The notes under the pieces are model-generated. The model had not been told where the DNA came from. It made no database searches and worked only from the letters and a program-made list of their open reading frames with translations. A stretch of DNA of 52,137 nucleotides from a virus. Taxonomy: Duplodnaviria; Heunggongvirae; Uroviricota; Caudoviricetes. A program made the translations under genes and the position numbers. Shown here one piece after another: positions 62 through 49,300 of the stretch. The stretch lies in IMG/VR virus record IMGVR_UViG_2778261534_000002. The stretch is one strand, 5' to 3'. Each line of letters starts with the position of its first letter. The first letter of the stretch is position 1.

Positions 62-613
62 AAATGATGACGCCGGAAACTTCTTATAAAGAGTGGAAAC
101 AGCCACATCATAGATGATTGCAACCTGCTTACGGGGGATGCCCTTCTCCAGCAATCGCCGCATTTGCTGCCATGTTTCTTCCTGGTATTTAGGCCGACGC
201 CCACCTATTCGACCTTCTGCGCGAGCTGCATCAAGTCCAGCGCGTGTACGTTCAACAATAAGTTCACGTTCCATTTCTGCCAGCGCCCCCATTACGTGAA
301 AGAAAAAGCGCCCCATTGGTGTACTGGTATCGATGGAGTCAGTGAGACTCCGGAAGTTAATGCCTCTGTCACGCAGCTCTTCCACCAGCACAACTAGGTG
401 ACGCATGCTGCGCCCAAGACGATCTAACTTCCATACGACCAGGGTGTCGCCTCTGGAAAGCATACGGAGAACCTTTTTTAACCCTGGGCGTTCAGCCTTT
501 TTGCCGCTCGCCTTATCCTCAAAAATTAGCTCACATCCTGCGCTTTCAAGGGCGTTTCGTTGTAAAGCGGTGTTTTGGTCATTAGTTGATACGCGAATGT
601 ATCCAATAAGCAT
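53..613 (-). CDS. cin: serine DNA invertase (Cin/Gin/Hin family)
   Basis: 186 aa; N-terminal resolvase catalytic motif GYIRVSTNDQ, C-terminal HTH; size typical of Hin/Gin/Cin. Confidence 0.9.
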   Translation of the reverse strand: MLIGYIRVSTNDQNTALQRNALESAGCELIFEDKASGKKAERPGLKKVLRMLSRGDTLVVWKLDRLGRSMRHLVVLVEELRDRGINFRSLTDSIDTSTPMGRFFFHVMGALAEMERELIVERTRAGLDAARAEGRIGGRRPKYQEETWQQMRRLLEKGIPRKQVAIIYDVAVSTLYKKFPASSFQS

Positions 614-8638: not shown

Positions 8639-8651
8639 CCGCCTTGTTAAG

Positions 8652-8666
8652 TTAAATTTCTAACAT
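8652..8666. promoter_or_regulatory. operator-like 15-bp motif
   Basis: TTAAATTTCTAACAT, member of recurrent family ATGTTAGAAAACTAA / TTAGTTTTCTAACAT. Confidence 0.4.
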
Positions 8667-8753
8667 AGTGTATTTATATACACTGTTGATCCTGGTGGAT
8701 GGGATCGAGTAGGATCGCGGTCACTGCTCCGGTAGCGACTGCCAAAAAAGCAA

Positions 8754-9801: not shown

Positions 9802-9854
9802 CCTGTGTGTCTACAAAACATCCCAATGATCGGAAAATGCTCGCTCGATGATTT

Positions 9855-9898
9855 GTGTTAGAAAATTAATTTGCTGTTTCTAAATCGGAATGTATGAT
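9855..9898 (+). promoter_or_regulatory. operator-like motif overlapping sigma70-like promoter of immunity module 1
   Basis: GTGTTAGAAAATTAA (9855-9869) followed by -35 TTGCTG (9871-9876), 16-nt spacer, -10 TATGAT (9893-9898). Confidence 0.45.
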
Positions 9899-10084
9899 CT
9901 GCATCATCGACTGAAGTCATCCATTGCTGAAATTTTTAGTTGATCTTCCATGTTTTCAGGCTTATATTCATGCCGTCGTAGCAAATTCTGCGACCGGGTT
10001 TGACAGCCTGAATACTTACGCGGACAACCGCACATTTCCGATATTGCGGTATTTTTGTGTCCGTAAAACCACGTTACGCCCGAA

Positions 10085-10180
10085 TTATGGTGGGGCGTGA
10101 TGGGGAGGCTTCGGCCTGCTGGTTTCGTAAGTGCCAGTCTGTCAACCCTGTCACGTCCTGCCACCTGTTTGACAGCGGGT
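10085..10180 (+). ncRNA. c4-like antisense RNA candidate
   Basis: structured leader upstream of icd-like gene; TCGTAAGT (10125-10132) is complementary to ACTTACGA at the icd RBS (10197-10204); GGC-ttcg-GCC tetraloop hairpin; boundaries approximate. Confidence 0.3.
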
Positions 10181-19625: not shown

Positions 19626-19756
19626 TTGATTAAGGTCACTCTTTACTCTAAAAGCAAATCCGACCTGTTGCATATAGACCATCCTTGAGTAGTATCTCTC
19701 TTGTTTTACAAATCTAACGTTGTTGTTATTATTTCGCATATTTACTATCAATGGGT

Positions 19757-19771
19757 GTGTTAGAAAATAGC
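19757..19771. promoter_or_regulatory. operator-like 15-bp motif
   Basis: GTGTTAGAAAATAGC. Confidence 0.35.
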
Positions 19772-20758: not shown

Positions 20759-20798
20759 TTTATTGCATCTTCCGGTACCGCCATCAAACTAATAAAAT

Positions 20799-20813
20799 AT
20801 GTTAGAAAACTAA
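20799..20813. promoter_or_regulatory. operator-like 15-bp motif (consensus copy)
   Basis: ATGTTAGAAAACTAA, identical 15-mer also at 42923 and as reverse complement at 31428 and 48523. Confidence 0.45.
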
Positions 20814-20822
20814 TTTAACAAA

Positions 20823-22046
20823 GTGACGGGAACAGCAATGAGTCAACACACTGATACTTCTAATCTGGAAATTATCTCGACAGCAATTGAAACGCTGCGC
20901 ACACAAATCGCTCTTATACAGAAACGGAATCCGGGTGATGACCTGTCAAAGCGACTGCACGAGAGTGTCATTGCCACTACAGATAACCTGGTGGCGGAAA
21001 TCAACAAGCTGCTTGATGATGGGGCAGTTGATTACAATAAGCTGGTGGATCAGTTTGAGGAATACCAACAAGCCGTTAATGATGGCTTGATCCGTTTTTC
21101 ACAAGTCACAGGCGTATCAGCGACAGTTGAAAGCCTGGGTGATGCAGTTAATCAATTTGCCGCGAATATGCGTAATGAGATCGGCAATCTGGAAGCGCGT
21201 CTTGAACAGGCAAATACACTGCGTAAATCTGCCGAAGCCGATTTGAACCGTTACAAAAAAGACTATCCGCCCAGCCTGACAAAGCGGCTGGATGTTGCGG
21301 AGAAGGATAACCGCGCGCTGAAAAGAGAGCGCCGGGAACTAAAAGAGCGTTTAACCAAGCTCAATCAGCAATGCATTGATTATCAAGGCGAAGGCGTCAC
21401 ACTGCGTAAAAAGTTGGCTACAGCGCAGAGCATTATCGAAACATTAAAGCGAGAGTGCTCACAGCTTGGTCACGATCTGAACCGTGCTTGTGGCATGGGA
21501 CAAAGACCAGAGACATTTCCACTCATGTATGATGGAAGGGATGCCATTGCCTACATCCATGAGTATCCGCACGGCCTGGTTGCGGAAACAGGGCAGCGTG
21601 GCGAAGCACTGTTGACGGCTAATTACCATCAACAAATCAGAACCAATCGCCTGTTAACGATGGATGTGATCCCATCGGTATGGGGAACGCCGCTTTACTA
21701 TCGCCTGCCGGGCTTCGAAAAGGACTGGAATACCGACATAGACGAATGTCTCGCAGATAAAATTATGGCGTACCTGGAGACGGATTTTCCGCGCTTATAT
21801 CGCCGGATTATGGACTCTAAGGATGCGCCAATCGATGAATTAAAAATGCGTCCGGAGACGCTGGAGGCAATCAAGCAGACGGAGTTTGATACTGTATTCA
21901 GTGTGGCCTGCATTCCAAGCTGTTTCCATGAAAGCATCCCGTTCATGCAAGGAGATCGTCGTCAGGAAATCATTGACGCTTGCCGGGTATGGGCGAACGA
22001 ATGGGATAAGAAGAATGGGGGTGTAGAAGATCTTTATGGGAAATAA
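20823..22046 (+). CDS. hypothetical protein, N-terminal coiled coil
   Basis: 407-aa ORF (probable start ATG 20838); coiled-coil N-half, Cys/His-containing C-half; no recognizable catalytic motif. Confidence 0.5.
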   Translation: MTGTAMSQHTDTSNLEIISTAIETLRTQIALIQKRNPGDDLSKRLHESVIATTDNLVAEINKLLDDGAVDYNKLVDQFEEYQQAVNDGLIRFSQVTGVSATVESLGDAVNQFAANMRNEIGNLEARLEQANTLRKSAEADLNRYKKDYPPSLTKRLDVAEKDNRALKRERRELKERLTKLNQQCIDYQGEGVTLRKKLATAQSIIETLKRECSQLGHDLNRACGMGQRPETFPLMYDGRDAIAYIHEYPHGLVAETGQRGEALLTANYHQQIRTNRLLTMDVIPSVWGTPLYYRLPGFEKDWNTDIDECLADKIMAYLETDFPRLYRRIMDSKDAPIDELKMRPETLEAIKQTEFDTVFSVACIPSCFHESIPFMQGDRRQEIIDACRVWANEWDKKNGGVEDLYGK

Positions 22047-22047
22047 T

Positions 22048-22062
22048 GTGTTAGAAATCTAA
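22048..22062. promoter_or_regulatory. operator-like 15-bp motif
   Basis: GTGTTAGAAATCTAA. Confidence 0.35.
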
Positions 22063-22203
22063 AATCACAATTCGAATGTATTGATTGTGGAGATAACTTA
22101 ACATAGAATTTTCCTTGCTGGTGGGCAGTACCCACGTTTCGCTTGCTGGGCTTGATAGTCACTTATTGGTTATTGTTCGCCCACCAGCATTTAACAAATT
22201 AAA

Positions 22204-22218
22204 GTGTTAGAAAAGGAT
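22204..22218. promoter_or_regulatory. operator-like 15-bp motif
   Basis: GTGTTAGAAAAGGAT. Confidence 0.35.
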
Positions 22219-23280: not shown

Positions 23281-23357
23281 GATGGTGTAGCTCAGTAGGA
23301 TAGAGCAGCAGCCTTCTAAGCTGTCGGTCGGTGGTTCGAATCCACCCACCATCGCCA
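23281..23357 (+). tRNA. tRNA-Arg (anticodon UCU)
   Basis: 77 nt; 7-bp acceptor stem GATGGTG/CACCATC, anticodon loop CTTCTAA, T-loop GGTTCGAATCC, 3' CCA. Confidence 0.9.
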
Positions 23358-23362
23358 ATTTA

Positions 23363-23449
23363 GGGGAGTTAGTCCGTAGGGGTAGCGGGGTAGACTGTAA
23401 ATCTACTGTCATTGCGACTCGGGTGGTTCGACTCCATCACTCCCCACCA
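23363..23449 (+). tRNA. tRNA-Tyr (anticodon GUA), long variable arm
   Basis: 87 nt; acceptor GGGGAGT/ACTCCCC, anticodon arm GTAGA-CTGTAAA-TCTAC, variable-arm stem GTC/GAC, 3' CCA; D-arm atypical. Confidence 0.7.
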
Positions 23450-23453
23450 AATT

Positions 23454-23529
23454 GCCGGTTTAGCTCAGTTGGTAGAGCGCCTGCCTTGTAAGCAGGATGT
23501 CAGCGGTTCGAGTCCGTTAACCGGCACCA
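23454..23529 (+). tRNA. tRNA-Thr (anticodon UGU)
   Basis: 76 nt; TAGCTCAGTTGGTAGAGC D-arm, anticodon loop CTTGTAA, T-loop GGTTCGAGTCC, 3' CCA. Confidence 0.9.
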
Positions 23530-23580
23530 ACACAACAGGTAAGGGCATTCTCCCTTATGGGGCTTGGCTTAAATGCATCG

Positions 23581-23609
23581 AGTGCTCTTACCGTTGTGAT
23601 GAAGTGCAG
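23581..23609. repeat. 30-nt spacer repeat, copy 1
   Basis: AGTGCTCTTACCGTTGTGATGAAGTGCAG; related copies at 23811 and 24112. Confidence 0.5.
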
Positions 23610-23724
23610 CTCTTTGAAGCAACCAGAAGATAAGCATCTGGCTTCACAACATAAACCGCAGGAACGACCAATAAACGGTAGTCCGTATGGAGAACACCCC
23701 GTTGAGGAAGAGGCCTGGCCGGAA

Positions 23725-23741
23725 CCGTAACCGGCACCACA
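23725..23741. repeat. duplicated tRNA-Thr 3' end fragment
   Basis: CCGTAACCGGCACCAC repeats the 3' end of tRNA-Thr (CCGTTAACCGGCACCA, 23514-23529) about 210 nt downstream. Confidence 0.45.
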
Positions 23742-23810
23742 ACGTTGAGAACACTGGCGTAACGGGGTCATATCCCAATCTATGAATAAATGTTGCGTTG
23801 CAGCGTGACA

Positions 23811-23844
23811 ACCAGTGTTCTCAACATTGTGGTGAATGCACAGG
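23811..23844. repeat. 30-nt spacer repeat, copy 2
   Basis: CCAGTGTTCTCAACATTGTGGTGAATGCACAGG; its first 16 nt are also the reverse complement of AACGTTGAGAACACTGG at 23741-23757 (large stem-loop). Confidence 0.45.
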
Positions 23845-23931
23845 CTGATGTGCCGCAACTACAGTAGTGCGCGCTTTGCGGGGCTTGCTACAACCCTGTG
23901 TCGGAGTTCAGCACCGACCATCACAATCACT

Positions 23932-24018
23932 GGAGAGTAGGGAGCATGGTGCTCAAGCGGTCTTGAAAACCGTCCCATTGCGCAAGCGATGATGGTTCGA
24001 TTCCATTACTCTCCGCCA
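23932..24018 (+). tRNA. tRNA-Ser (anticodon UGA), long variable arm
   Basis: 87 nt; acceptor GGAGAGT/ACTCTCC, anticodon loop CTTGAAA, T-loop GGTTCGATTCC, 3' CCA. Confidence 0.85.
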
Positions 24019-24518: not shown

Positions 24519-25326
24519 TGCAGCGATTATTTTTGGTTCTTTATGTCTGACCGGATGCGATCGGGTAGAGCCAGGTAACGTAGGGATCAAAGTAAATAAG
24601 CTGGGGGATGATAAAGGTATCGGTGAAGTAGTTGGCGTTGGTCGCTACTGGACAGGCTTGAATACTGAAGTTTATATCTTCCCGACCTTTAAGCAAATGA
24701 AGACATACGATGAGCCGTTCAGCTTCCAGATGAGCGACGGAACAACCATTGGTTACCACATCGGCGTAGCCTACAAGGTTGATCCAGCAAAAGTCACAAC
24801 GGTATTTCAGACCTATCGCAAAGGTGTAGATGATATTACTGATACCGATCTACGCCAGAAGGTTGCAGATGCTCTGAACCGGTTAGCCAGCAAAATGACC
24901 ACCGACAAATTTATCGACGGTGGCAAATCTGAATTGCTTGATGCAGCCCTTAAAGACATTCAGGAAGAAATGACGCCCATCGGTATTCAGGTAATGAGCC
25001 TCTCATATGTGGGCAAGCCGGAGTACCCGCCAACCGTTATCGACAGCATTAATGCCAAAGTCACGGCGAACCAGAAAACTCTGCAACGCGAGCAGGAAGT
25101 CAAGCAACGCGAAGCAGAAGCCAACATGCTGCGCGCAGAAGCTGCTGGACAGGCCGATGCCATTCGCACAAAAGCCCAGGCTGAAGCTGATGCCATTCGT
25201 TTACGCGGTGAGGCTCTGCGCCAGAACCCCGGCGTTATGGAGTTGGAAGCGATCAACAAATGGAACGGAACGCTACCGCAGTATATGACCAGTAATACCG
25301 CTGTTCCGTTTGTTCCGGTGAAATAA
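24499..25326 (+). CDS. SPFH/band-7 (prohibitin-like) lipoprotein
   Basis: 275 aa; signal peptide with lipobox LTGC; SPFH-like core followed by Ala/Glu-rich coiled-coil tail. Confidence 0.65.
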   Translation: MKKTLISAAIIFGSLCLTGCDRVEPGNVGIKVNKLGDDKGIGEVVGVGRYWTGLNTEVYIFPTFKQMKTYDEPFSFQMSDGTTIGYHIGVAYKVDPAKVTTVFQTYRKGVDDITDTDLRQKVADALNRLASKMTTDKFIDGGKSELLDAALKDIQEEMTPIGIQVMSLSYVGKPEYPPTVIDSINAKVTANQKTLQREQEVKQREAEANMLRAEAAGQADAIRTKAQAEADAIRLRGEALRQNPGVMELEAINKWNGTLPQYMTSNTAVPFVPVK

Positions 25327-25339
25327 CCAAATAGATAAC

Positions 25340-25471
25340 ATGATGGAATTTTGGACGTTTGCCGACAAGAACCCTTGGTGGACATTTTTATTTCTGCTGG
25401 TGGTTGCATATGGGGTCGAGCAAGCAGCAAAAGCCTTACGCGGTCCTGGCAAAAAGCGTAAGCGGAATTAA
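25340..25471 (+). CDS. small membrane protein (43 aa)
   Basis: MMEFWTFADKNPWWTFLFLLVVAYGV...KKRKRN; single TM helix with basic tail; below the ORF-track length cutoff; found by eye. Confidence 0.3.
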   Translation: MMEFWTFADKNPWWTFLFLLVVAYGVEQAAKALRGPGKKRKRN

Positions 25472-25480
25472 CAGTAATCT

Positions 25481-25556
25481 GGCCCTTTAGCTCAGTGGTT
25501 AGAGCTGGCGACTCATAATCGCACGGTCACCGGTTCAAGTCCGGTAGGGGCCACCA
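25481..25556 (+). tRNA. tRNA-Ile2 (anticodon CAU, lysidine type) or tRNA-Met
   Basis: 76 nt; very close to E. coli ileX-type sequence as recalled (GGCCC.TTAGCTCAGTGGTTAGAGC...CTCATAA...GGTTCAAGTCC...GGGGCCACCA). Confidence 0.85.
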
Positions 25557-26010
25557 TATTTGGTTGTAACACGGCGTCTGGCACATGCGTCGTTAGCGGT
25601 CTGGTGACGTTAAAGGGGTATCTTTGACTCTTGCTCAGGCAAACGGACCAGGTAGCCGGAATGTGCAAGCCCCGATAACAGTGGCGGACCGAGGACTCAC
25701 CATCCTGGCGATTCGGTGTGACAGCCGGAAGAGCACGGCGCACAACAGGAAAAGGCGTTTAATTAGCGTGAGCGCCGTTTCCGTTGTGGTAATTGCGGCT
25801 ATGCGCTCGTGACGAAGCCATTTTTATTCACTACGTTCTGATAAGTGACGTCGCCAGGAGTGGCTAACCTGGCAGGTGGAGGCACCACCGCCACAACTCC
25901 TTTCAATTCATCATATAGCCGCTCAGGCTGTACCCCTTAATTAATACGAATTTACGACATCACTACCGGCACTTCCGGGGGATAGTCGCGCGTGTAAAAA
26001 AGGAGACGTT

Positions 26011-26586
26011 ATGTTAATGGCGAACGATAACGCATATGCAGAAGAAGATCTCATTTTGAGTGACTTCATAGGGAAGCGGGAACGCTGGACCCAAAAGCGA
26101 GAGGAACTTTACGCCTCATTAGTTCGCAAAGGCGTCAATATCGAAACCGCACAGAGCGGCGATATGACAGTGGTAAGCGTTGGATTGCACGGTGTAAGCG
26201 TGTCAGCAATCAATCATGAGCCATACGTTGCGTTATCCGAGTCAATGGTAAGGTTAGTTAAGTTCCTGAAGTACACAGAAGCGAATAATGTAATCATTGG
26301 CAAAAAGAATATCCCTTTTTCCTCGGCTTTTTACTGGATGATGAAAGGGCTTGATGCCCGGCGGACATCATGGCCTAAAGGGAGCTATATATCGATGTTC
26401 CGTGGCAGCATTGGCAGCAAAGAAAAGCTCTTCGAATTCTTGCCGGAAGAGGCATTCGATATTGTGGAAGGGTGCGATGTGATGGTGATGCCTCGCCTGG
26501 TAATGATGAATGGGGATTTACAGGCGCAGACAGACTGGTTTGCAACTGGTGTGGATATTATCGCGACTGACTGGGAGGCTTTCTGA
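26011..26586 (+). CDS. hypothetical protein with C-terminal DUF2829-like domain
   Basis: 191 aa; C-terminal ~90 aa carry KGLDARRTSW ... IIATDWEAF signature. Confidence 0.45.
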   Translation: MLMANDNAYAEEDLILSDFIGKRERWTQKREELYASLVRKGVNIETAQSGDMTVVSVGLHGVSVSAINHEPYVALSESMVRLVKFLKYTEANNVIIGKKNIPFSSAFYWMMKGLDARRTSWPKGSYISMFRGSIGSKEKLFEFLPEEAFDIVEGCDVMVMPRLVMMNGDLQAQTDWFATGVDIIATDWEAF

Positions 26587-26978: not shown

Positions 26979-27086
26979 TATTAGGTGTTTAATATTAATT
27001 TTCTAATACAATCATCTTTTTACCAGTCTATACAGTTTTAACATTCTCATTATCATCCCCTCGGTCATTTCCTGCCCGGGGGATTA

Positions 27087-27479: not shown

Positions 27480-28840
27480 GTCTGGTTAATTGGGAGGAGC
27501 ACCGCGCCCGCTTTATAGCGTTGCGTGAAGAAAAAGGGATCACTGTAAAGGAATACTGTGAGGAGCATGGCCTTAGCTTCAATACAGCCAGAAAGCATCT
27601 CAATATGAAAAAAAATGAGGTGCGGTCGCAGGTAAAGACAACAAAAAAAAGCACCAAATCACCTGAAAAAAAACGGGCGGGAAGAGCAACAAAAAAGCTG
27701 GAAGAGGGTGCAGAAAAAACAAAATTTACAGAAATTGACAATTCGCAGGGCGCAGGTTCTTTCCGAAGTATGCCGAGAAAGAAAACTTCGGATCATGAAA
27801 ATAATGCAAATAATAACAATGAGATAAAAGAATCTGTCAGGAGATCATTGCGCGAAAAAATGGCGAAAATGATCCCCGAAGAAGATAAAAGCGCCCCAAA
27901 AATTGAGGGATCTTCTGCAATGATCCCTGACGGTGCTGTGCAGCGTGCCACATTGCCCACTACGAATGTGGCTCGCGATATGATGAAGAACGGCGCAGAA
28001 GAACACCTGCGGTTAGCAATTCAAATGGCGCAAGAGCGCGCACTTCAGTATCAAAGCATTGTTGATCAGGAGGCCGAACGTCTACAGGCGGAAATAGACG
28101 CCTTGGGCGATAAAGAGCCAGAAGGAATGCACCCTGGGCAGCGCCTTCTCGGTCTAATCAGTGACGCGGCCTACTACATGAATGATTTTATCAGTAGGTT
28201 GGCAGCTATATATCAGTCCGAACAAAAGCTGCGACAGGGGGATGAAAAGCTTCGTCAGAGCGCTCGCCAGCAAGCATTCAAAGAGGCTGAGGCCAGAGAA
28301 AAACTCGAATTAGCACGCCTACAGGCCGAACAGCGTGGCAAAGAGATTGAATATCGCATTGGCGCTGACGCACGCGCAGCCAGAGTTATCGCCGCCGCTA
28401 TACGTATGCGTGAGCGCGAGGAACTGGATGATATCGGTGTTGCTGAATACATCGAGCGCCAGGGGGTCAGCGTCCCGGCTATCCTCGCGGCGCGCGCGGC
28501 GAAAGCTATCACTCTTCTCGAACCACCTGTTTCTGACGTCAATGATGTTGATGATGAACAGCTGGACAAAGAGGCAAGGGAGTTTGCAACGCTTCAGGCT
28601 AACCATCCGCAATGGCTGGCAGAGCGCCGGGCGGATGTGGCAACCATTGTTGAAGAATTGGGGTGCGGAGATTACGACCGCAATGGCGAGCGTAAAGCTG
28701 GAGAATTCGAGGCCAACGACGAAGAGCTGGATATTGACCCTTCGGCAACGGCTGAAATTTACGGTGATTATGATGTATCTGATGCAGGGTATGACGCCGG
28801 AGATGATGATATCGCGATAGAACCGCCGGAGGATGATTAA
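27476..28840 (+). CDS. pacA: terminase small subunit PacA
   Basis: 454 aa; N-terminal HTH-like region, Lys-rich linker, acidic C-terminus; directly precedes and overlaps large terminase gene; contains GATC-rich candidate pac site. Confidence 0.7.
   Translation: MSLVNWEEHRARFIALREEKGITVKEYCEEHGLSFNTARKHLNMKKNEVRSQVKTTKKSTKSPEKKRAGRATKKLEEGAEKTKFTEIDNSQGAGSFRSMPRKKTSDHENNANNNNEIKESVRRSLREKMAKMIPEEDKSAPKIEGSSAMIPDGAVQRATLPTTNVARDMMKNGAEEHLRLAIQMAQERALQYQSIVDQEAERLQAEIDALGDKEPEGMHPGQRLLGLISDAAYYMNDFISRLAAIYQSEQKLRQGDEKLRQSARQQAFKEAEAREKLELARLQAEQRGKEIEYRIGADARAARVIAAAIRMREREELDDIGVAEYIERQGVSVPAILAARAAKAITLLEPPVSDVNDVDDEQLDKEAREFATLQANHPQWLAERRADVATIVEELGCGDYDRNGERKAGEFEANDEELDIDPSATAEIYGDYDVSDAGYDAGDDDIAIEPPEDD
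27790..27926. other. candidate pac site (cluster of Dam GATC hexamers)
   Basis: five GATC-containing hexamers (GGATCA, AGATCA, TGATCC, GGATCT, TGATCC) within about 135 bp in the 5' part of pacA; P1 pac is a cluster of TGATC(A/G) hexamers inside pacA. Confidence 0.4.
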
Positions 28841-30348
28841 TGGCTGGCGGGCGCAAGATTAAATGCGTCACCAGCGATCCACGCTGGCGCGATATGGTAA
28901 TCAAATACCGCTACAACTTTACCCAGGCTGTTGTCGATATTTTTGGGATGTTCCCCTCCCACCAGCAGCAGCAGATCATTCAGTCAGTGCAGGAAACGGG
29001 GAGTAGGACTACCGTCACGTCCGGACACGGAACGGGGAAGTCGTCCCTTACCGCGATGTTGCTGTTGATTTTTATGATCCTGTTCCCCGATGCCCGTGTC
29101 ATCATTGTTGCTAACAAGATAGGCCAGGTAAAAACAGGCGTATTCAAATACGTTAAACAGTATTGGGCGAATGCAGTTAAGCGTCATGGGTGGTTGCAGA
29201 CCTATTTTGTCCTCTCTGACACCATGTTTTATGAGCGCTCCCGTAAGGGGATTTGGGAAGTTCTCTGCAAAGGTTATCGACTCGGCAACGAAGAAGCGCT
29301 GGCGGGGGAACACGCGGCACATTTGCTTCTAATTCTGGATGAAGCATCTGGTATATCTGATAAGGCGATCGGCGTAATGACCGGTGCTCTTACTGAAGAA
29401 GATAACCGGATGTTGATGCTATCCCAGCCAACAAGGCCAAGTGGTTATTTCTACGATTCGCACCATTCTCAAGCAAAAACCCCAGACAACCCGAAAGGGA
29501 TCTGGACAGCAATTGTTCTTAACTCGGAAGAATCACCGTTCGTCACACCACAATTCATCAAGCAGAAGCTTCTGGAATATGGTGGGCGCGATTCTATTGA
29601 GTATATGGTCAAGGTGCTTGGTCAGTTCCCACGAGAAATTAACGGCTATTTGCTTGGTCGTGATGAATGCGATCGCGCTGCTCGCCGCAAGGTGTTGTTG
29701 GAGAAAAACTGGGGATGGGTGGCAACGGCTGACGTTGGTAATGGGCGAGATAAGTCGGTCCTCAACATCTGCAAGGTATCTGGTCACAGGGATAAGCGGC
29801 GCGTTGTTAACTTTAAGGTAATGGAGATGCCTGGCACTATGGACCCATTGGCCTTTGCTGACTTTATATATAACGAATGTACGCCGGAAAAATACCCGAA
29901 TATAACAATCGCGGTTGATGCCGATGGTTTTGGTTCTGATACGTGTGCGCAGTTGGTGCGTCGTGGTGCGAACCCGGTACGTATTCGGTGGGGAAAACCC
30001 ATGTTTGCGAACAAAGACAGGGAGCGATTTGTTAATCAGCGTGCCTACGCAAATATTATGGCGCGTGATGCCATAAAGTCAGGGCGTATGCGGATAGACA
30101 GTGACCCTAAAACGGCAGAGCAAGCGTCAAAAATCCCCTTTTTACTGAATGAGGAAGGGAAAATGGCGATGATGCGCAAAGAGCACATGCGGCAAAAGCT
30201 AAACATCAAATCGCCTGACCGATGGGATACCTACTGCTTCACTATGCTGGTGGACTATGTGCCTGCTAATGAAGATATTGGTGCCGAAATGGCAACTTTC
30301 CGAGATCAGGTTCTGGCGGATATCGAAATGCCAGATCTGGATATATAA
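28840..30348 (+). CDS. pacB: terminase large subunit PacB
   Basis: 502 aa; Walker A SGHGTGKSS, Walker B-like LLLILDEASG; C-terminal nuclease-like region. Confidence 0.85.
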   Translation: MAGGRKIKCVTSDPRWRDMVIKYRYNFTQAVVDIFGMFPSHQQQQIIQSVQETGSRTTVTSGHGTGKSSLTAMLLLIFMILFPDARVIIVANKIGQVKTGVFKYVKQYWANAVKRHGWLQTYFVLSDTMFYERSRKGIWEVLCKGYRLGNEEALAGEHAAHLLLILDEASGISDKAIGVMTGALTEEDNRMLMLSQPTRPSGYFYDSHHSQAKTPDNPKGIWTAIVLNSEESPFVTPQFIKQKLLEYGGRDSIEYMVKVLGQFPREINGYLLGRDECDRAARRKVLLEKNWGWVATADVGNGRDKSVLNICKVSGHRDKRRVVNFKVMEMPGTMDPLAFADFIYNECTPEKYPNITIAVDADGFGSDTCAQLVRRGANPVRIRWGKPMFANKDRERFVNQRAYANIMARDAIKSGRMRIDSDPKTAEQASKIPFLLNEEGKMAMMRKEHMRQKLNIKSPDRWDTYCFTMLVDYVPANEDIGAEMATFRDQVLADIEMPDLDI

Positions 30349-30368
30349 AGCCCCGCGATGCGGGGCCG
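30349..30368. terminator. bidirectional intrinsic terminator
   Basis: GCCCCG-cgatg-CGGGGC flanked by A/T-rich sequence, between convergent pacB and c1-locus gene. Confidence 0.6.
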
Positions 30369-30375
30369 GTTGTGA

Positions 30376-31413
30376 TTACCAGAGCTTCGCGGCGTACTGC
30401 GTTTGGGGGAATGTGTATCCGTAACGTTCTTCGATTGCTTTGCCGTATTTTTTACGAGCTTCATTCAGTTTAATGCCGGTCAGGTCGTCTCCAGAGGCCA
30501 TCATTACGTCTAACAATTCCAGATCCATTTTATCCAGCCTTGCCATTGCTTCACGTGATGTACGTATCTTACGCTCAATGATATGGCGAATAGCCGGATC
30601 GGCATCCTCCAGCATCTTAGCGGATTTCTGCTTAAGGCTTTCATTGCGAATATCGATGTTCCTTAAGATGTACGACTTCGCAACGTAGCTTGGCTGGTGT
30701 TTTTCCAGGTCACGAACACGATATAAGTTAAAATCGCCGAGAAGGCTGCAAGGTACCGATTCGACGCCAGAATAAATTGTAATGCTCCGGCGTTCACCAA
30801 CATTATTGACAACGGGGATCGTTGTCTTCGGTAGTCTTGCGAAAACCAATGCGCCATGTGCGCCAACTCTAAAGCGAGAAAGGGCATTGCTGCCTTCGAT
30901 GTTTGTTGTCAGCACAACATCTGTATATGCCTCTTTACGCGCCCGGTAGATCTCGCCTTCAGGCTCAGCTTCAAAGAAGCGCTGTTCTTCTTCAAGAGCA
31001 CCTACAATTTGAGAAAAAACCCTATTTTTCAGGCTTTTCTTTATGATTTTGTCGTATTTTTTGAGCAATTGTTCACGTGTAAATGTACGTGTTGTTGTAG
31101 CGCTTTGCACAACAACATGCGTGCTTTGATTGGTGTCCTCAATGATGAATGGGATCGGAGAATATACAGACTCAACAATGTTCGACGCTTTGCCGTCGGC
31201 ATCGCGGCACATGTCAACGAAGGCTTTCCATTCAGCAAGACATTTTTCAGCTTCTTCTAATATGTTTTGGTCATGCGTTAATGCAACATGGCGGAATTCC
31301 TCGCCAGCATAACTGGTATCATGGAAAACAGAGTTTGCGACCACCAGCTCTTTCCACCGTTCAGCGGTTTGCAGGAACCGTTTGTACTCTTTCTCGATCG
31401 ACTTCTTACTCAT
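30376..31413 (-). CDS. c1-locus protein, candidate immunity regulator of unknown family
   Basis: 345 aa at the position of c1/coi in P1 (between pacB and the lox-equivalent site); no similarity to P1 C1 as I recall it; operator-like motif 15-29 nt upstream of its start. Confidence 0.5.
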   Translation of the reverse strand: MSKKSIEKEYKRFLQTAERWKELVVANSVFHDTSYAGEEFRHVALTHDQNILEEAEKCLAEWKAFVDMCRDADGKASNIVESVYSPIPFIIEDTNQSTHVVVQSATTTRTFTREQLLKKYDKIIKKSLKNRVFSQIVGALEEEQRFFEAEPEGEIYRARKEAYTDVVLTTNIEGSNALSRFRVGAHGALVFARLPKTTIPVVNNVGERRSITIYSGVESVPCSLLGDFNLYRVRDLEKHQPSYVAKSYILRNIDIRNESLKQKSAKMLEDADPAIRHIIERKIRTSREAMARLDKMDLELLDVMMASGDDLTGIKLNEARKKYGKAIEERYGYTFPQTQYAAKLW

Positions 31414-31427
31414 TATTCCTACTCGAT

Positions 31428-31442
31428 TTAGTTTTCTAACAT
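31428..31442. promoter_or_regulatory. operator-like 15-bp motif (consensus copy)
   Basis: TTAGTTTTCTAACAT, reverse complement of ATGTTAGAAAACTAA; just upstream of the c1-locus gene. Confidence 0.45.
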
Positions 31443-31513
31443 AAAATTACTATGACAAATTTATGTCGAATAACAGAGTGAGTAAAGGATCGAACTGTGA
31501 TTTTTTGTCATCA

Positions 31514-31528
31514 ATTTTAGAAAACCAA
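31514..31528. promoter_or_regulatory. operator-like motif (near match)
   Basis: ATTTTAGAAAACCAA, 12 of 14 positions match the consensus. Confidence 0.3.
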
Positions 31529-31623
31529 CTGTATAAACCACACTTCGCAAATTAAAGACCATGAAGGCAACGTGTTACTGGTCAAAATCAATCTATGATG
31601 GATTAAAAAAAATCGCCATTTTG

Positions 31624-31655
31624 TAACTTTAAATAATTGGCATTATTTAAAGTTA
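31624..31655. other. rox: rox-type recombinase target site
   Basis: TAACTTTAAATAAT-TGGC-ATTATTTAAAGTTA: perfect 14-bp inverted arms; reverse complement equals the published rox sequence as I recall it; 150 bp upstream of the recombinase gene. Confidence 0.85.
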
Positions 31656-31807
31656 AGCTATAATCATGGGTGGATGATCAGTGTTGACATCACTGAAAAT
31701 ACGTGCCTCGAATCAAAGGTTTGAATCTTGAAAATTAACTTATAGCTACCCTGTCATTTTTATATTTTTCGCGTAGCGTCATCTGTATATAGAGGTTAAA
31801 TAGTTTC

Positions 31808-32836
31808 ATGAGTGAATTAATTATCTCTGGCAGCTCCAGTGGTTTTCTGCGCAACATTGGCAAAGAGTACCAGGAGGCCGCAGAAAACTTTATGCGGTTC
31901 ATGAATGACCAGGGGGCTTACGCGCCTAATACTTTGCGCGATCTCCGGTTAGTGTTTCACTCCTGGGCGAGATGGTGTCACGCTCGCCAGCTCGCCTGGT
32001 TCCCGATCTCTCCAGAGATGGCCCGCGAGTATTTTCTTCAGCTGCATGATGCTGATCTGGCTTCGACCACCATTGATAAGCACTACGCCATGCTGAACAT
32101 GCTGCTTTCGCATTGTGGCCTTCCGCCACTTTCGGATGATAAAAGTGTTTCTCTGGCTATGCGGCGCATCCGGCGTGAAGCGGCAACGGAAAAAGGCGAA
32201 CGAACAGGCCAGGCTATACCGCTGCGGTGGGACGATCTGAAACTGCTCGACGTCCTGTTGTCCAGGTCAGAACGGCTGGTGGACCTGCGCAACCGGGCTT
32301 TTCTCTTTGTTGCATACAATACGCTGATGCGCATGTCTGAAATCTCGCGTATTCGTGTAGGAGATCTGGACCAAACAGGTGACACTGTCACGCTACATAT
32401 TTCACACACGAAGACAATAACGACCGCCGCCGGGCTTGATAAGGTGCTTTCCCGTCGCACTACTGCTGTGCTGAATGACTGGCTGGATGTTTCCGGGCTT
32501 CGTGAACATCCTGACGCGGTGCTGTTCCCGCCGATACACCGTAGCAATAAGGCCAGGATTACGACAACGCCCCTTACTGCACCTGCAATGGAGAAAATAT
32601 TTAGTGACGCCTGGGTGTTGCTGAATAAAAGAGATGCCACTCCAAACAAGGGGAGATACCGGACGTGGACCGGGCATAGTGCTCGTGTCGGGGCTGCTAT
32701 CGATATGGCAGAAAAGCAGGTGTCTATGGTGGAGATCATGCAGGAAGGAACCTGGAAGAAACCGGAAACACTTATGCGGTATCTGCGCCGTGGCGGCGTG
32801 TCTGTGGGGGCTAATAGCCGCCTGATGGATTCATAA
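31808..32836 (+). CDS. dre: Cre-family tyrosine recombinase (Dre-type)
   Basis: 342 aa; Cre-like blocks WFPISPEMAREYFL, VSLAMRRIRRE, RNRAFLFVAYNTLMRMSEISRIRVGDL, WTGHSARVGAAIDMA; adjacent rox site. Confidence 0.9.
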   Translation: MSELIISGSSSGFLRNIGKEYQEAAENFMRFMNDQGAYAPNTLRDLRLVFHSWARWCHARQLAWFPISPEMAREYFLQLHDADLASTTIDKHYAMLNMLLSHCGLPPLSDDKSVSLAMRRIRREAATEKGERTGQAIPLRWDDLKLLDVLLSRSERLVDLRNRAFLFVAYNTLMRMSEISRIRVGDLDQTGDTVTLHISHTKTITTAAGLDKVLSRRTTAVLNDWLDVSGLREHPDAVLFPPIHRSNKARITTTPLTAPAMEKIFSDAWVLLNKRDATPNKGRYRTWTGHSARVGAAIDMAEKQVSMVEIMQEGTWKKPETLMRYLRRGGVSVGANSRLMDS

Positions 32837-32851
32837 ATTAAATTTCTAACA
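32837..32851. promoter_or_regulatory. operator-like 15-bp motif
   Basis: TTAAATTTCTAACAC directly after the dre stop codon. Confidence 0.35.
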
Positions 32852-32909
32852 CATCTTTTTAGATTGTTATCTTTGCTGTAAAGTACCCTCGCCTATTTCG
32901 GAGGGTGCT

Positions 32910-42881: not shown

Positions 42882-42922
42882 AATGTATACCGACTCTGTT
42901 TTGTTCCGAGCGGTAAAATAAT

Positions 42923-42953
42923 ATGTTAGAAAACTAAAATCAATGTTCTAACA
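42923..42953. promoter_or_regulatory. operator-like motif pair
   Basis: ATGTTAGAAAACTAA (42923-42937) plus partial inverted copy TGTTCTAACA (42944-42953). Confidence 0.45.
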
Positions 42954-42978
42954 AATTTTGAGTGCGTAAATGATTTGA

Positions 42979-47678: not shown

Positions 47679-47868
47679 AATTTCCCCAGCATCGTGACGA
47701 AAAACATCAGCACGGCAAAAAGCTCAATACCTAATTCAAGTAGCGCCAACGCCCCGAAAAAAAACACATAGAACAGGCCAATCTCATTCACAGATGGCTG
47801 GTGGATCGCACTTAAAGCTATAAGCATCATGTCCTCCAAACATTTATCAGTGATGATATTAATGTTTT

Positions 47869-47883
47869 GTGTTAGAAAATCAA
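47869..47883. promoter_or_regulatory. operator-like 15-bp motif in divergent promoter region
   Basis: GTGTTAGAAAATCAA with partial inverted partner TATCTAACC 10 nt downstream. Confidence 0.4.
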
Positions 47884-47947
47884 TTTTGAATATCTAACCA
47901 TTTTGATCAATCATAGAAAAATCGTTGAAAAGTAAGAGACTGCCATC

Positions 47948-48526
47948 ATGCAGAAACAGAGTTATTGGGAGAAACAGAGACAAAAAGCCATGCAAAAATT
48001 GGCTGACCCGGCCTGGCGAGAGGAACAAAGGGCAAAGCGCCTTCAACAAGCTCAACGCCAGCAGCAGCGAGCGAGAGAAAAAGCCGCATCGCCTGAATAT
48101 CGGCAAAAGAAAATTGAAAAAGCAAAACAATATGAACAGCGGAGAAAAGATAAATCTGTATCCGCTCCGCCCAAAAAAACACGCACGTCACGCGGCCTGA
48201 AGGGCAGATCACTCACAGCCGATGAACGCCGGATACAGACCGCTATCGGTACTCTCCCCTGCATTGCCTGCCATATTCACGGGCAACATAGCCCAGTGGT
48301 ATCCCTGCACCATATCTTCGGGAGAACGGCAGAGAACGCGCATAAATATGTCCTCCCTTTGTGTAAATGGCACCACCAGTACGCAGCGCCAGCCGAGGTC
48401 CGAGACCAATATCCCTGGCTGGTCCCTGTTCATGCTGATGGAAAAATAGGCGGAAAAGCAGATTTCATGCGGCACAATGCCGATGAAATGACGTTGTATC
48501 TGATGGCGATTGAATTGATAAATTAG
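47948..48526 (+). CDS. Ref-like HNH endonuclease
   Basis: 192 aa; K/R/Q-rich low-complexity N-terminal 80 aa followed by Cys/His motifs CIACHIHG ... LHHIFG ... CKWHHQ, the architecture described for P1 Ref. Confidence 0.5.
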   Translation: MQKQSYWEKQRQKAMQKLADPAWREEQRAKRLQQAQRQQQRAREKAASPEYRQKKIEKAKQYEQRRKDKSVSAPPKKTRTSRGLKGRSLTADERRIQTAIGTLPCIACHIHGQHSPVVSLHHIFGRTAENAHKYVLPLCKWHHQYAAPAEVRDQYPWLVPVHADGKIGGKADFMRHNADEMTLYLMAIELIN

Positions 48527-48537
48527 TTTTCTAACAT
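48523..48537. promoter_or_regulatory. operator-like 15-bp motif (consensus copy)
   Basis: TTAGTTTTCTAACAT overlapping the ref-like stop; followed by -35 TTGAAT / -10 TACATT-like promoter. Confidence 0.4.
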
Positions 48538-48857
48538 TTTAAGTTGAATTGAAAAACACTCCGATGTACATTCACTACCGATTGGCACACCGGTCAACTT
48601 TTTGAGACAAACTATTTAGTTTTTCGTATTATTGCCGCCGCCATACCTATGGCGGTGCAATATAGGTGGCTGAAAAGCCCCCGTTGACTCACGGTGTTCC
48701 AGCCTTTATTGCGCCGCCACCAGACCGTGGAACAGTCGATGGCGGCTCCGAAAGCAAGGAGTCACTACACTATGAACAACTACAGTCTTTCCCCATCACT
48801 CGTCGTCCACCACTCACGCGATAATCTGCATTCTTTACTCGCGCTGGGGGTGTCAAA

Positions 48858-49025: not shown

Positions 49026-49131
49026 AAATACAGACTGTTGCGCCCTGGCATTATCGTGGGGTATATTTCTACGGCACCTTAGAAAAACGGGTGCCGGGAT
49101 TGGAACCCCGGATAATGTCAAAGGCGACACA

Positions 49132-49153
49132 GACGCCGAAAGCGTCTTTTTTT
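49132..49153 (+). terminator. rho-independent terminator
   Basis: GACGC-cgaaa-GCGTC followed by TTTTTTT. Confidence 0.65.
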
Positions 49154-49169
49154 GTGTCATGCCATCGCA

Positions 49170-49300
49170 CAGCCATACGTAGCGTTTAGCTCAGAGATCA
49201 ATGGTAGTGCTGGCTGGGCTGCCGAAAGGCAGGCCGGTTCCCTTTGACGCCGGTAGTTCCAACCCAGTCAGTGCTACCGCCATTGAGATTGGAACCTCAC
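49170..49300 (+). ncRNA. c4-like antisense RNA candidate (module 2)
   Basis: structured leader upstream of second icd-like gene; CCTTTGAC (49232-49239) is complementary to GTCAAAGG at the icd RBS (49311-49318); CTGCC-gaaa-GGCAG hairpin; boundaries approximate. Confidence 0.3.

What the first reader, a model, noticed from the sequence alone, without database searches (positions are those of the whole stretch)
30376..31528. The c1 position holds a 345-aa gene of unknown family, fronted by operator-like sites
In P1 the immunity repressor c1 (with coi) lies between pacB and the lox site, on the strand opposite pacAB. Here that slot holds one 345-aa minus-strand ORF with no obvious HTH and no similarity to P1 C1 as I recall it. 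The recurrent 15-bp motif sits 15-29 nt upstream of its start (31428-31442), with a near-copy at 31514-31528, as expected for an autoregulated repressor. It could instead be a repressed accessory or defence gene.
Basis: partly seen in the sequence, partly recalled or inferred. Interest (0 to 1): 0.7.

Follow-up and report, generated by a model that had tools for sequence, protein, structure and literature searches.

The report
Phage D6 c1 immunity repressor gene
The 345-aa gene is the already-annotated c1 immunity repressor of the P1-like plasmid-phage D6, a very diverged but clear relative of P1 C1 with its own dispersed operator sequence, so the finding is ordinary; models of the family do, however, resemble the replication-terminator protein Tus.

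Summary
ORF 30376-31413(-) encodes 345 aa, and the 15-bp motif sits 15-29 nt upstream, with an inverted near-copy at 31514-31528. The motif has 12 sites in the window against about 1.5 expected.

The "unknown family" reading is wrong. The window is a D6-like phage-plasmid, and the protein is 100% identical to the D6 gene annotated c1 since 2004. It is a distant homologue of P1 C1: 21% identity, the same PHROG, Pfam PF27008 Phage_P7_repressor_C1, and hhalign probability 100% over 241 columns. It also carries about 100 extra C-terminal residues.

The motif (consensus aaaTTAgtTTTCTAACAYa) lies where P1 has C1 operators: upstream of c1, lpa, ref and repL, and upstream of both c4-icd-ant loci. It aligns in register with the P1 operator at about 11 of 17 positions. 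The two sites upstream of c1 are kept in relatives whose C1 is only 44-51% identical. No coi, imcA or imcB homologue is present.

Verdict: a known, probably autoregulated C1-type repressor with diverged specificity.

The parts
30376..31413 (-). c1 gene of a D6-like phage-plasmid. The 345-aa C1-family immunity repressor has a core (residues ~2-245) homologous to P1 C1 and a D6-type C-terminal helical extension (~246-345).
   Evidence: ORF. 100% identical to D6 C1. Annotated c1 / prophage repressor. PHROG 1678. hhalign against P1-type C1 proteins gives probability 100%. PF27008 Phage_P7_repressor_C1. AF2 model with pLDDT 94.
31425..31446 (+). Proximal operator-like site (core 31428-31442, an exact consensus copy). 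It lies 12-33 nt upstream of the c1 start codon, antiparallel to c1 and just upstream of the RBS.
   Evidence: (PWM score 29.0). The same position and orientation is seen in L006 and L007, whose C1 proteins are 51% and 44% identical.
31510..31531 (-). Distal operator-like site (core 31514-31528, 2 mismatches). It lies 97-118 nt upstream of the c1 start and is parallel to c1.
   Evidence: PWM score 20.6. A conserved counterpart is present in L006 and L007.
30349..30367 (.). GC-rich hairpin between the convergent pacB and c1 genes. It is a terminator-like element.
   Evidence: 8 pairs, 7 of them G-C, followed by a T-rich tail on the minus strand.
31624..31655 (.). rox recombination site (TAACTTTAAATAAT-TGGC-ATTATTTAAAGTTA), target of the Dre recombinase. 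It marks the boundary of the immC region.
   Evidence: Sequence. Annotated rox in AY753669 and MF356679. An 11/12 sigma-70-like promoter (31637-31664, +) overlaps it and points toward dre.
31808..32836 (+). dre (Cre-like tyrosine recombinase). It is the neighbour that fixes the synteny with P1 cre.
26992..27013 (+). Operator-like site 74-95 nt upstream of lpa (27087), in the same orientation as the gene. It is the positional equivalent of P1 Olpa.
   Evidence: P1 Olpa lies 71-87 nt upstream of lpa and overlaps the -35 of Plpa.
8649..8670 (+). Operator-like site between pro and repL, upstream of the lytic replication gene.
9851..9872 (-). Operator-like site just after repL and upstream of the first c4-a1b1 / C4 RNA / icd / antirepressor locus.
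   Evidence: Rfam finds c4-a1b1 at 9962-10014 and C4 at 10083-10168. P1 Orlf sits 4 nt after repL.
20795..20816 (-). Operator-like site (exact core) 7-28 nt upstream of the pmgS ORF.
22044..22065 (-). Operator-like site at the 3' end of pmgS.
32835..32856 (+). Operator-like site at the dre stop codon, upstream of the orf117-orf116-dut operon.
42919..42958 (.). Bivalent operator made of two inverted, 4-bp-overlapping copies between ppp and pdcB. The arm at 42942-42958 (AATGTTCTAACAAATTT) matches the P1 operator consensus at 14 of 17 positions.
47865..47904 (.). Bivalent operator 44-83 nt upstream of ref (47948-48526), in the divergent ref / D6-orf88-homologue region. It is the positional equivalent of P1 Oref.
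48520..48541 (+). Operator-like site (exact core) at the ref stop codon, upstream of the second isrK / C4 RNA / icd / antirepressor locus.
   Evidence: C4 RNA at 49197-49284.

Best explanation
The ORF is the c1 gene of a D6-like P1-group phage-plasmid. It encodes the primary immunity repressor, which is a deeply diverged homologue of P1 C1.

By analogy with P1 C1, the protein would bind as a monomer to an asymmetric operator of about 17-19 bp. The consensus here is aaaTTAgtTTTCTAACAYa. At least 12 copies are scattered over this 52-kb window, single or as inverted overlapping pairs. They lie at the control regions of early or lytic functions (lpa, repL, ref, both c4-icd-ant immunity loci and others) and twice in front of c1 itself. 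Occupancy of these sites would keep the prophage silent, and the two c1-proximal sites would give negative autoregulation.

The operator is a diverged version of the P1 operator in the same register. D6-type and P1-type repressors are therefore expected to be heteroimmune.

The absence of an HTH is explained by the predicted fold. Models of both the D6-type and the P1-type branch resemble Tus, a monomer that clamps an asymmetric DNA site with interdomain beta-strands.

What is shown:
- gene identity and homology to P1 C1;
- motif enrichment, placement and conservation;
- the predicted fold.

What is inferred:
- that this protein binds this motif;
- monomeric binding;
- autoregulation;
- heteroimmunity;
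- the role of the extra C-terminal helical domain.
For: Identity:
- The region is 97.9-99.3% identical in DNA to phage D6 immC.
- The protein is 100% identical to D6 C1, which is annotated c1 / prophage repressor.

Homology to P1 C1:
- BLASTP gives 21% identity over 240 aa, E 2e-8.
- tblastn of P1 C1 against the window gives one significant hit, on this ORF, E 2e-6.
- Both proteins hit PHROG 1678, at 2.8e-170 and 2.6e-140.
- NCBIfam phage_rep_C1 matches at E 8.9e-6 over residues 7-240.
- hhalign of D6-type against P1-type alignments gives probability 100% and E 2.9e-45 over 241 columns.
- Intermediate proteins link the two branches.
- The precomputed Pfam family is PF27008 Phage_P7_repressor_C1.

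Synteny: the order pacA-pacB-c1-rox-dre matches P1 and is kept in L006 and L007.

Operators:
- The motif gives 12 matches against 1.5 expected, and 12 PWM sites against 0.2.
- All 12 strong sites lie between genes or on a stop codon.
- Several positions mirror P1 Olpa, Oref, Orlf and Oc1.
- Two sites lie upstream of Rfam-confirmed C4 antisense RNA loci.
- Bivalent inverted pairs occur, as in P1.
- One arm matches the P1 consensus at 14 of 17 positions and fixes the register.
- The two-site layout in front of c1 is kept in relatives with 51% and 44% identical C1, while the flanking DNA has diverged.

Fold:
- The AF2 models have pLDDT 94.0 and 96.5.
- The only significant PDB matches are Tus-Ter complexes: Foldseek E 9.6e-8 and 5e-10, with the next hit at E 0.09 or worse.
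Against: - The annotation in GenBank is itself by similarity.
- The protein scores far below the NCBIfam equivalog cut-off (25 bits against 500).
- tblastn against the phage collection did not list P1 at E up to 10, so the similarity is weak at the pairwise level.
- No convincing sigma-70 promoter for c1 was found. The best candidates match 8 of 12 positions, so the way the operators act on c1 transcription is unresolved.
- coi, imcA and imcB are absent, and Lxc is reported absent from D6-like elements (PMC6799933). The circuit therefore differs from P1.
- The Tus similarity rests on predicted structures with TM-scores of only 0.36-0.45.
Confidence: 0.88

Rival explanations
1. The ORF is a repressed accessory or defence gene of unknown family that merely occupies the c1 slot. 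The real repressor that binds the motif would be encoded elsewhere.
For: The local Pfam copy gives no hit. No HTH is found. The gene itself has motif copies upstream, as would any gene of the regulon.
Against: Full-length core homology to P1 C1 is clear. PADLOC gives no hit. The only significant P1 C1 hit in the 52-kb window is this ORF. The operator has diverged in step with the protein.
Confidence: 0.03
2. The protein is a C1 homologue whose main job is not transcriptional repression. It would act as a Tus-like polar roadblock to replication forks or to transcription at the dispersed sites. One example would be controlling lytic (repL) replication or plasmid replication termination.
For: The predicted fold is Tus-like. 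The sites are asymmetric and oriented. One site lies immediately after repL, which in P1 contains oriL. Several sites sit at the 3' ends of genes (22044, 32835, 48520) rather than at obvious promoters.
Against: From my own knowledge of the literature, P1 C1 is an experimentally established transcriptional repressor, and the P1 record annotates its operators as overlapping promoters. The sites at 3' ends of genes here are also upstream of the next operon. Nothing tested here addresses fork arrest.
Confidence: 0.05
3. The recurrent motif is not the C1 operator. It would be the site of another factor, such as a late-promoter element recognised by Lpa, a host factor site, or a repeat with no regulatory role.
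For: No binding data exist. The motif is AT-rich, like much intergenic DNA.
Against: The motif aligns in register with the P1 C1 operator, and one arm matches at 14 of 17 positions. It sits at the positions of P1 Olpa, Oref, Orlf and Oc1, including upstream of lpa itself. It is absent from the pacA late-promoter region. It is conserved in front of diverged c1 genes. Enrichment is measured against dinucleotide-preserving shuffles.
Confidence: 0.04

Closest known systems
C1 repressor of phage D6 (GenBank AAV84948.1 in AY753669, Sauer & McDermott 2004; ASR76322.1 in MF356679, Gilcrease & Casjens 2018)
   Same: The protein is 100% identical. The flanking genes are the same (pacB, rox, dre), and the DNA is 97.9-99.3% identical.
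   Different: The window is a D6-like variant, not D6 itself. It matches D6 in blocks of 84-99% identity, with gaps in the match. Its closest plasmid records come from Salmonella and E. coli.
C1 repressor of phages P1 and P7 (NCBIfam NF041318 phage_rep_C1; Pfam PF27008 Phage_P7_repressor_C1; PHROG 1678)
   Same: The core of about 245 residues is homologous (hhalign probability 100%). The genomic slot and strand are the same. Neither protein has an HTH. Both use dispersed, asymmetric operators that are sometimes bivalent, at c1, lpa, ref and next to repL. The operator register is shared, around a common TCTAA core.
   Different: Identity is only about 21%. The protein is 345 aa against 283 aa, with a conserved extra C-terminal helical region. 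The operator consensus is A(G/A)TTTTCTAACAYAtt against ATTGCTCTAATAAATTT, about 11 of 17 shared. No coi, imcA or imcB lies upstream. The score is far below the equivalog cut-off. Two c4-icd-ant loci are present instead of one.
Tus, the E. coli replication terminus site-binding protein (PDB 1ECR, 4XR0-2; Pfam PF05472)
   Same: It is the only significant structural match for models of both C1 branches. From my own knowledge, both Tus and P1 C1 are monomers that recognise asymmetric sites of about 17-23 bp without an HTH. The site cores look alike: Ter GTTGTAAC, D6 TTTCTAAC, P1 GCTCTAAT. This last comparison is made by eye and the Ter sequence is from memory.
   Different: There is no usable sequence similarity. 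A C1-family profile finds no Tus among PDB sequences. hhalign gives P 0.002-0.0035 only. A Tus HMM scores at most 7.6 bits on family members, although the alignments are in a consistent register. TM-scores are 0.36-0.45. The known function is fork arrest rather than repression, and Tus is a chromosomal or plasmid gene rather than a phage immunity gene.

Membership tests
P1/P7 C1 repressor family (Pfam PF27008, PHROG 1678) | Sequence homology to P1 C1 over the core of the protein | tested here: met
   PHROG 1678 is hit at 2.8e-170 by this protein and at 2.6e-140 by P1 C1. BLASTP gives E 2e-8. hhalign gives probability 100% and E 2.9e-45 over 241 columns. PF27008 is precomputed on all D6-type relatives.
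P1/P7 C1 repressor family | Equivalog-level match (NCBIfam NF041318, cut-off 500 bits), meaning the same protein with the same specificity | tested here: not met
   The score is 25.4 bits, E 8.9e-6. P1 C1 itself scores 607.5 bits.
P1/P7 C1 repressor family | Location between pacB and the Cre-type recombination site, on the strand opposite pacAB | tested here: met
   The same order is found in L006 and L007.
P1/P7 C1 repressor family | Multiple dispersed asymmetric operators, monovalent and bivalent, at early-gene control regions and in front of c1 | tested here: met
   There are 12 strong sites against 0.2 expected, including two bivalent pairs, all intergenic. Their positions parallel P1 Oc1, Olpa, Oref and Orlf. 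Binding itself was not tested.
P1/P7 C1 repressor family | Operator sequence of P1 type (ATTGCTCTAATAAATTT), meaning P1 immunity specificity | tested here: not met
   Only one match with up to 3 mismatches is found, which is chance level (15 of 100 shuffles give at least one). That match is one arm of a D6-type bivalent site. The D6 core TTTCTAAC is absent from the P1 immC region.
P1/P7 C1 repressor family | Companion genes coi, imcA and imcB upstream of c1 | tested here: not met
   tblastn of P1 Coi, ImcA and ImcB against the window gives only chance hits, E 0.7 or higher. The ORFs of 20 aa or more lying wholly between c1 and rox encode only 21-33 aa, and no Coi, ImcA or ImcB hit falls there.
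P1/P7 C1 repressor family | Demonstrated repression or immunity and operator binding by the protein | not testable with these tools
   This needs EMSA or footprinting and immunity assays. The two primary D6 papers (PMC534624, PMC5800970) are not held in the library.
Tus / Ter-binding protein (Pfam PF05472) | Tus fold: two alpha/beta domains joined by DNA-binding beta-strands | tested here: met
   [not shown]
Tus / Ter-binding protein (Pfam PF05472) | Sequence membership in PF05472 | tested here: not met
   The query has no Pfam hit. Only 1 of 57 family members hits Ter, at E 0.015. A C1-family profile finds no Tus among PDB sequences. hhalign probability is 9-14%.
Tus / Ter-binding protein (Pfam PF05472) | Polar arrest of replication forks at its binding sites | not testable with these tools
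   This needs in vivo or in vitro fork-arrest assays.
HTH (lambda CI / Cro-type) phage repressors | A recognisable helix-turn-helix DNA-binding domain | tested here: not met
   There are no Pfam hits at E up to 1. None of the 25 Pfam families listed for the 57 members is an HTH family. The model is an alpha/beta fold that matches Tus.
Anti-phage defence systems (PADLOC) | Match to any known defence-system protein model | tested here: not met
   There are 0 families at E up to 1.

The most novel reading that the evidence does not exclude
The whole C1 family of P1-group phage-plasmid immunity repressors (P1, P7 and D6 types) shares the otherwise orphan fold of the replication-terminator protein Tus and is distantly homologous to it.

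C1 would then read its asymmetric operators as a monomer, through interdomain beta-strands in the major groove. Tus, which Galli et al. 2019 propose was domesticated from a plasmid gene (PMC6549158), would share an ancestor with a mobile-element repressor lineage.

I found no paper in the searchable library that mentions both Tus and the C1 repressor. That library is incomplete, and the Pfam or InterPro text for PF27008 could not be read. The probability given covers the relationship being both real and not yet described.
Probability: 0.4. Interest if true: 0.65.

Novelty: already known. Interest (0 to 1): 0.25.

Why it matters
As framed, the finding matters little. The gene has been deposited as the D6 c1 repressor since 2004, and the family has Pfam, PHROG and NCBIfam models.

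Three results here add something:
- An explicit D6-type operator consensus and a regulon map for this window, aligned in register with the P1 operator. I could not check whether the D6 papers already give this. It predicts heteroimmunity and names the base positions that changed along with the protein.
- A conserved C-terminal domain of about 100 residues that P1 C1 lacks, in an element that also lacks Coi and reportedly Lxc. This suggests the immunity circuit is wired differently.
- The predicted Tus-like fold of the family. It would explain how an HTH-less monomer reads an asymmetric site, a long-standing oddity of P1 C1. It would also give Tus, until now a structural orphan, its first relatives, in plasmid-prophages.

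Tried and rejected
- Primary D6 papers and the P1 genome paper (Sauer & McDermott 2004, PMC534624; Gilcrease & Casjens 2018, PMC5800970; Lobocka 2004, PMC523184): none is held. What they say about D6 operators or immunity could not be checked.
- Local Pfam copy: no hit for either D6 or P1 C1. PF27008 exists only in the precomputed annotations.
- tblastn of the protein against the phage collection: P1 was not listed at E up to 10. Taken alone this would have wrongly suggested no homology.
- phmmer and profile searches against PDB sequences: nothing relevant.
- Tus profile: the homologue search returned only proteins at least 81% identical to E. coli Tus among those listed, so the profile stayed shallow. 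hhalign reached only P 0.002-0.0035.
- Third large protein search, with the family profile, to look for C1-Tus intermediates: nothing new, because of the candidate cap.
- Tus HMM against the 57 family members: at most 7.6 bits, although 11 of the top 12 alignments are in the same register. The best of 1140 shuffled sequences scored 6.1 bits. This is weak support only.
- Promoter scans for c1: no strong sigma-70 match. Several candidates match 8 of 12 positions and overlap or precede the two operators. No promoter is assigned.
- Coi, ImcA and ImcB homologues: not found. The 33-aa ORF 31461-31562(-) between the operators shows no Coi similarity.
- Defence-gene reading: rejected.
- Literature searches for a described C1-Tus link: zero papers.
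Full report
**What is at the coordinates.** ORF 30376-31413 on the minus strand encodes 345 aa from an ATG start. An AGGA ribosome-binding site lies just upstream. The ORF is convergent with pacB (28840-30348), and a GC-rich terminator-like hairpin (30349-30367) separates the two genes. Upstream of its start lie 210 bp of non-coding DNA, then a 32-bp palindromic recombination site at 31624-31655, then a Cre-like recombinase gene at 31808-32836. A copy with 2 mismatches lies on the other strand at 31514-31528.

**Identity of the element.** The region 30000-32900 is 97.9% identical to the phage D6 immC record AY753669 and 99.3% identical to the D6 genome MF356679. The 345-aa protein is 100% identical to the D6 gene annotated 'c1: phage repressor protein; similar to the C1 repressor of phage P1' and 'prophage repressor'. 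The recombinase is Dre and the palindrome is rox. The window as a whole is a D6-like variant rather than D6 itself: it matches D6 in blocks of 84-99% identity, with gaps in the match. The c1 region recurs in 139 PLSDB plasmids, 117 from Escherichia, 16 from Salmonella and 5 from Shigella, usually labelled 'phage repressor protein' or 'hypothetical protein'.

A tblastn search against the phage collection indeed does not list P1, and the local Pfam copy gives nothing for either protein. Direct tests are nevertheless clear:
- BLASTP of the two proteins gives 21% identity over 240 residues, E 2e-8.
- tblastn of P1 C1 against the whole 52-kb window gives one significant hit, on this ORF, E 2e-6.
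- Both proteins fall in PHROG 1678, at 2.8e-170 and 2.6e-140.
- NCBIfam's phage_rep_C1 model matches residues 7-240 at E 8.9e-6. The score of 25 bits is far below its 500-bit equivalog cut-off.
- An exhaustive HMMER search of 1.8 billion cluster representatives finds a small family of 59 representatives at E up to 1e-3. It has a long class of about 345-380 aa and a short class of about 250-290 aa. Intermediates hit both D6 C1 and P1 C1.
- hhalign of a D6-type alignment against a P1-type alignment gives probability 100% and E 2.9e-45 over 241 columns. D6 residues 2-245 align with P1 C1 residues 3-250.
- The precomputed Pfam family on all D6-type relatives is PF27008, Phage_P7_repressor_C1.

The 'unknown family' claim is refuted. 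The last 100 or so residues of the D6 type have no counterpart in P1 C1. They are conserved within the long class, with invariant D297, L300, R320, Y323, G324 and G332.

**The motif is a real, dispersed, operator-like element.**
- With up to 3 mismatches it occurs 12 times, against 1.53 expected from dinucleotide-preserving shuffles. None of 100 shuffles reaches 12, and four copies are exact.
- A weight matrix with flanks gives the consensus aaaTTAgtTTTCTAACAYa. It finds 12 sites scoring above 15, against 0.2 in shuffles.
- Two loci, 42919-42958 and 47865-47904, are inverted, 4-bp-overlapping pairs. This is the 'bivalent' arrangement annotated for P1 operators.
- After mapping to the D6 annotation, every strong site lies between genes or on a stop codon.

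The positions of the sites are:
- between pro and repL (8649-8670);
- just after repL and upstream of a c4-a1b1 / C4 RNA / icd / antirepressor locus (9851-9872; Rfam hits);
- upstream of pmgS (20795-20816) and at its 3' end (22044-22065);
- 74-95 nt upstream of lpa (26992-27013);
- twice upstream of c1 (31425-31446 and 31510-31531);
- at the dre stop codon, upstream of the dut operon (32835-32856);
- between ppp and pdcB (42919-42958);
- 44-83 nt upstream of ref (47865-47904);
- at the ref stop codon, upstream of the second isrK / C4 / icd / antirepressor locus (48520-48541).

The P1 record annotates C1 operators at matching places. Olpa lies 71-87 nt upstream of lpa. Oref lies upstream of ref. 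Orlf lies 4 nt after repL. Oc1a-e lie upstream of c1.

**The operator has diverged together with the repressor.** The P1 consensus ATTGCTCTAATAAATTT has only one match with up to 3 mismatches in the window. That is chance level, and the match is one arm of the D6-type bivalent site, AATGTTCTAACAAATTT at 42942-42958. This match fixes the register. In that register the D6 consensus A(G/A)TTTTCTAACAYAtt shares about 11 of 17 positions with P1 around a common TCTAA core (my alignment). The D6 core TTTCTAAC is absent from the P1 immC segment. Heteroimmunity between D6-type and P1-type elements is the expected consequence, though this is inferred.

**Comparative support.** Two metagenomic relatives have C1 proteins that are 51% (L006) and 44% (L007) identical. 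They keep the recombinase-c1-pacB-pacA-lpa order. Both also have a GTTAGAAAA copy 14-34 nt before the c1 start and a TTTTCTAAC copy about 100 nt further upstream, in the same orientations as here. The rest of the intergenic DNA has diverged. The core octamer is also enriched in those loci: 7 occurrences against 0.66 expected, and 4 against 0.5. This footprint is the best available evidence that the sites in front of c1 are functional.

**How it probably works.** By homology, synteny and operator logic, the protein is the primary immunity repressor. It would hold early and lytic functions off by occupying the dispersed sites, and it would limit its own synthesis through the two c1-proximal sites. 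From my own knowledge, autoregulation with DNA looping is established for P1 C1. I could not assign the c1 promoter. The best sigma-70-like candidates match only 8 of 12 positions, and they either overlap the operators or lie just upstream of the proximal one.

The circuit differs from P1 in three ways:
- No coi, imcA or imcB homologue lies upstream or anywhere else in the window.
- Lxc is reported missing from D6-like elements (PMC6799933).
- There are two c4-icd-ant loci.

The extra C-terminal helical region is predicted to be a long helical hairpin followed by three short helices. It may take over looping, oligomerisation or antirepressor sensing. That suggestion is speculation.

**Why there is no HTH: a Tus-like fold.** An AlphaFold2 model of the 345-aa protein, built from a 57-sequence family alignment, is confident (mean pLDDT 94.0, pTM 0.77).
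- Foldseek against the PDB returns four significant hits. All are E. coli Tus bound to Ter DNA, at E 9.6e-8 to 3.7e-6, probability 1.00 and about 300 aligned columns. The next hit is at E 0.09.
- As an independent replicate I modelled a short, P1-type member, P0054, which is 32% identical to P1 C1 (pLDDT 96.5, pTM 0.84). Foldseek again returns only Tus, at E 5e-10 to 3e-9 and TM 0.41-0.45, with the next hit at E 0.24.

Sequence support for the link is weak but consistent:
- hhalign of the family against Tus gives P 0.002-0.0035, aligning C1 85-196 with Tus 145-268.
- One of the 57 members hits Pfam Ter at E 0.015.
- A Tus HMM scores at most 7.6 bits on family members, yet 11 of the 12 best alignments use the same register. 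The best of 1140 shuffled sequences scores 6.1 bits.

From my own knowledge, Tus is a monomer that grips an asymmetric site with interdomain beta-strands, and P1 C1 is a monomer that binds asymmetric 17-bp operators. The fold therefore offers a mechanism. Family-invariant residues R41, W62, P86/P88, R157, R159 and G187 are candidates for the DNA-binding face, but this was not tested.

No paper in the searchable library contains both 'Tus' and 'C1 repressor'. Galli et al. 2019 argue that tus was domesticated from a plasmid gene (PMC6549158), which would fit a shared mobile-element ancestry. I treat this link as a lead found in passing, not as part of the verdict on the finding.

**Verdict.** The repressor-plus-operators reading is supported, while 'unknown family' is refuted. 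The gene is the known c1 of phage D6, so the finding itself is ordinary and its novelty class is 'already known'. This analysis contributes the explicit D6-type operator consensus and regulon map, the conserved extra C-terminal domain, and the predicted Tus-like fold of the C1 family.

Noticed in passing
[not shown]
   Followed up: partly
window 246-345 of the protein = DNA 30376-30678: D6-type C1 proteins carry a conserved C-terminal region of about 100 residues that is absent from P1 C1. It is predicted to be a long helical hairpin plus three short helices, with invariant D297, L300, R320, Y323, G324 and G332. Its function is unknown. The element also lacks coi, imcA and imcB.
   Followed up: partly
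window 42919-42958 and 47865-47904: Two bivalent operators, each made of two inverted copies that overlap by 4 bp. One lies between ppp and pdcB. The other lies in the divergent ref / D6-orf88-homologue region.
   Followed up: yes
window 9962-10168 and 49074-49284: Two separate immI-like loci. The first has a c4-a1b1 target element (9962-10014) and a C4 antisense RNA (10083-10168). The second has an isrK-like RNA (49074-49152) and a second C4 RNA (49197-49284). Each is followed by icd and an antirepressor gene and preceded by an operator-like site.
   Followed up: partly
window 23281-24018 and 25481-25553: ARAGORN and Rfam place the tRNA genes on the window + strand, the same strand as the surrounding genes. 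They are Arg-tct, Tyr-gta, Thr-tgt and Ser-tga, plus one more at 25481-25553. The D6 record MF356679 annotates its tRNAs (Ser, Thr, Asn) on what corresponds to the opposite strand, and its tRNA set differs. This is a possible strand error in the record and a variable tRNA cluster.
   Followed up: no
whole window against MF356679: The window is not D6 itself. It matches D6 in blocks of 84-99% identity, with gaps in the match around D6 coordinates 6173-6915 (tciA/tciB) and 25241-26352 (orf23/24). Between dre and ref it holds about 1.7 kb more DNA than the colinear D6 mapping predicts. The closest c1-region matches are Salmonella and E. coli plasmids of 92-97 kb.
   Followed up: partly
L007 9724-9755 (compare window 31624-31655): A relative whose C1 is 44% identical has a rox-like site, TAACTTTAGATAAC-TCCC-ATTATCTAAAGTTA. 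It carries symmetric changes in both arms relative to rox and a different spacer. This suggests a Dre-like recombinase with altered site specificity.
   Followed up: no
window 31637-31664 (+): A near-consensus sigma-70 promoter (TTGGCA-16-TATAAT, 11 of 12 positions) overlaps the right half of rox and points toward dre. P1 likewise has cre and coi promoters annotated next to lox.
   Followed up: no
window 19699-19720, 19759-19766 and 22206-22213: Additional weaker copies or bare core copies of the motif. One lies just upstream of the pmgM homologue's start (PWM score 12.1), one lies inside its 5' end, and one lies in the roughly 1.2-kb stretch between pmgS and the tRNA cluster, which is unannotated in D6.
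   Followed up: no
window 31461-31562 (-): A 33-aa ORF lies between the two c1-proximal operators, in the place where P1 has coi, imcB and imcA. It shows no similarity to Coi, ImcA or ImcB and is probably not a gene.
   Followed up: partly
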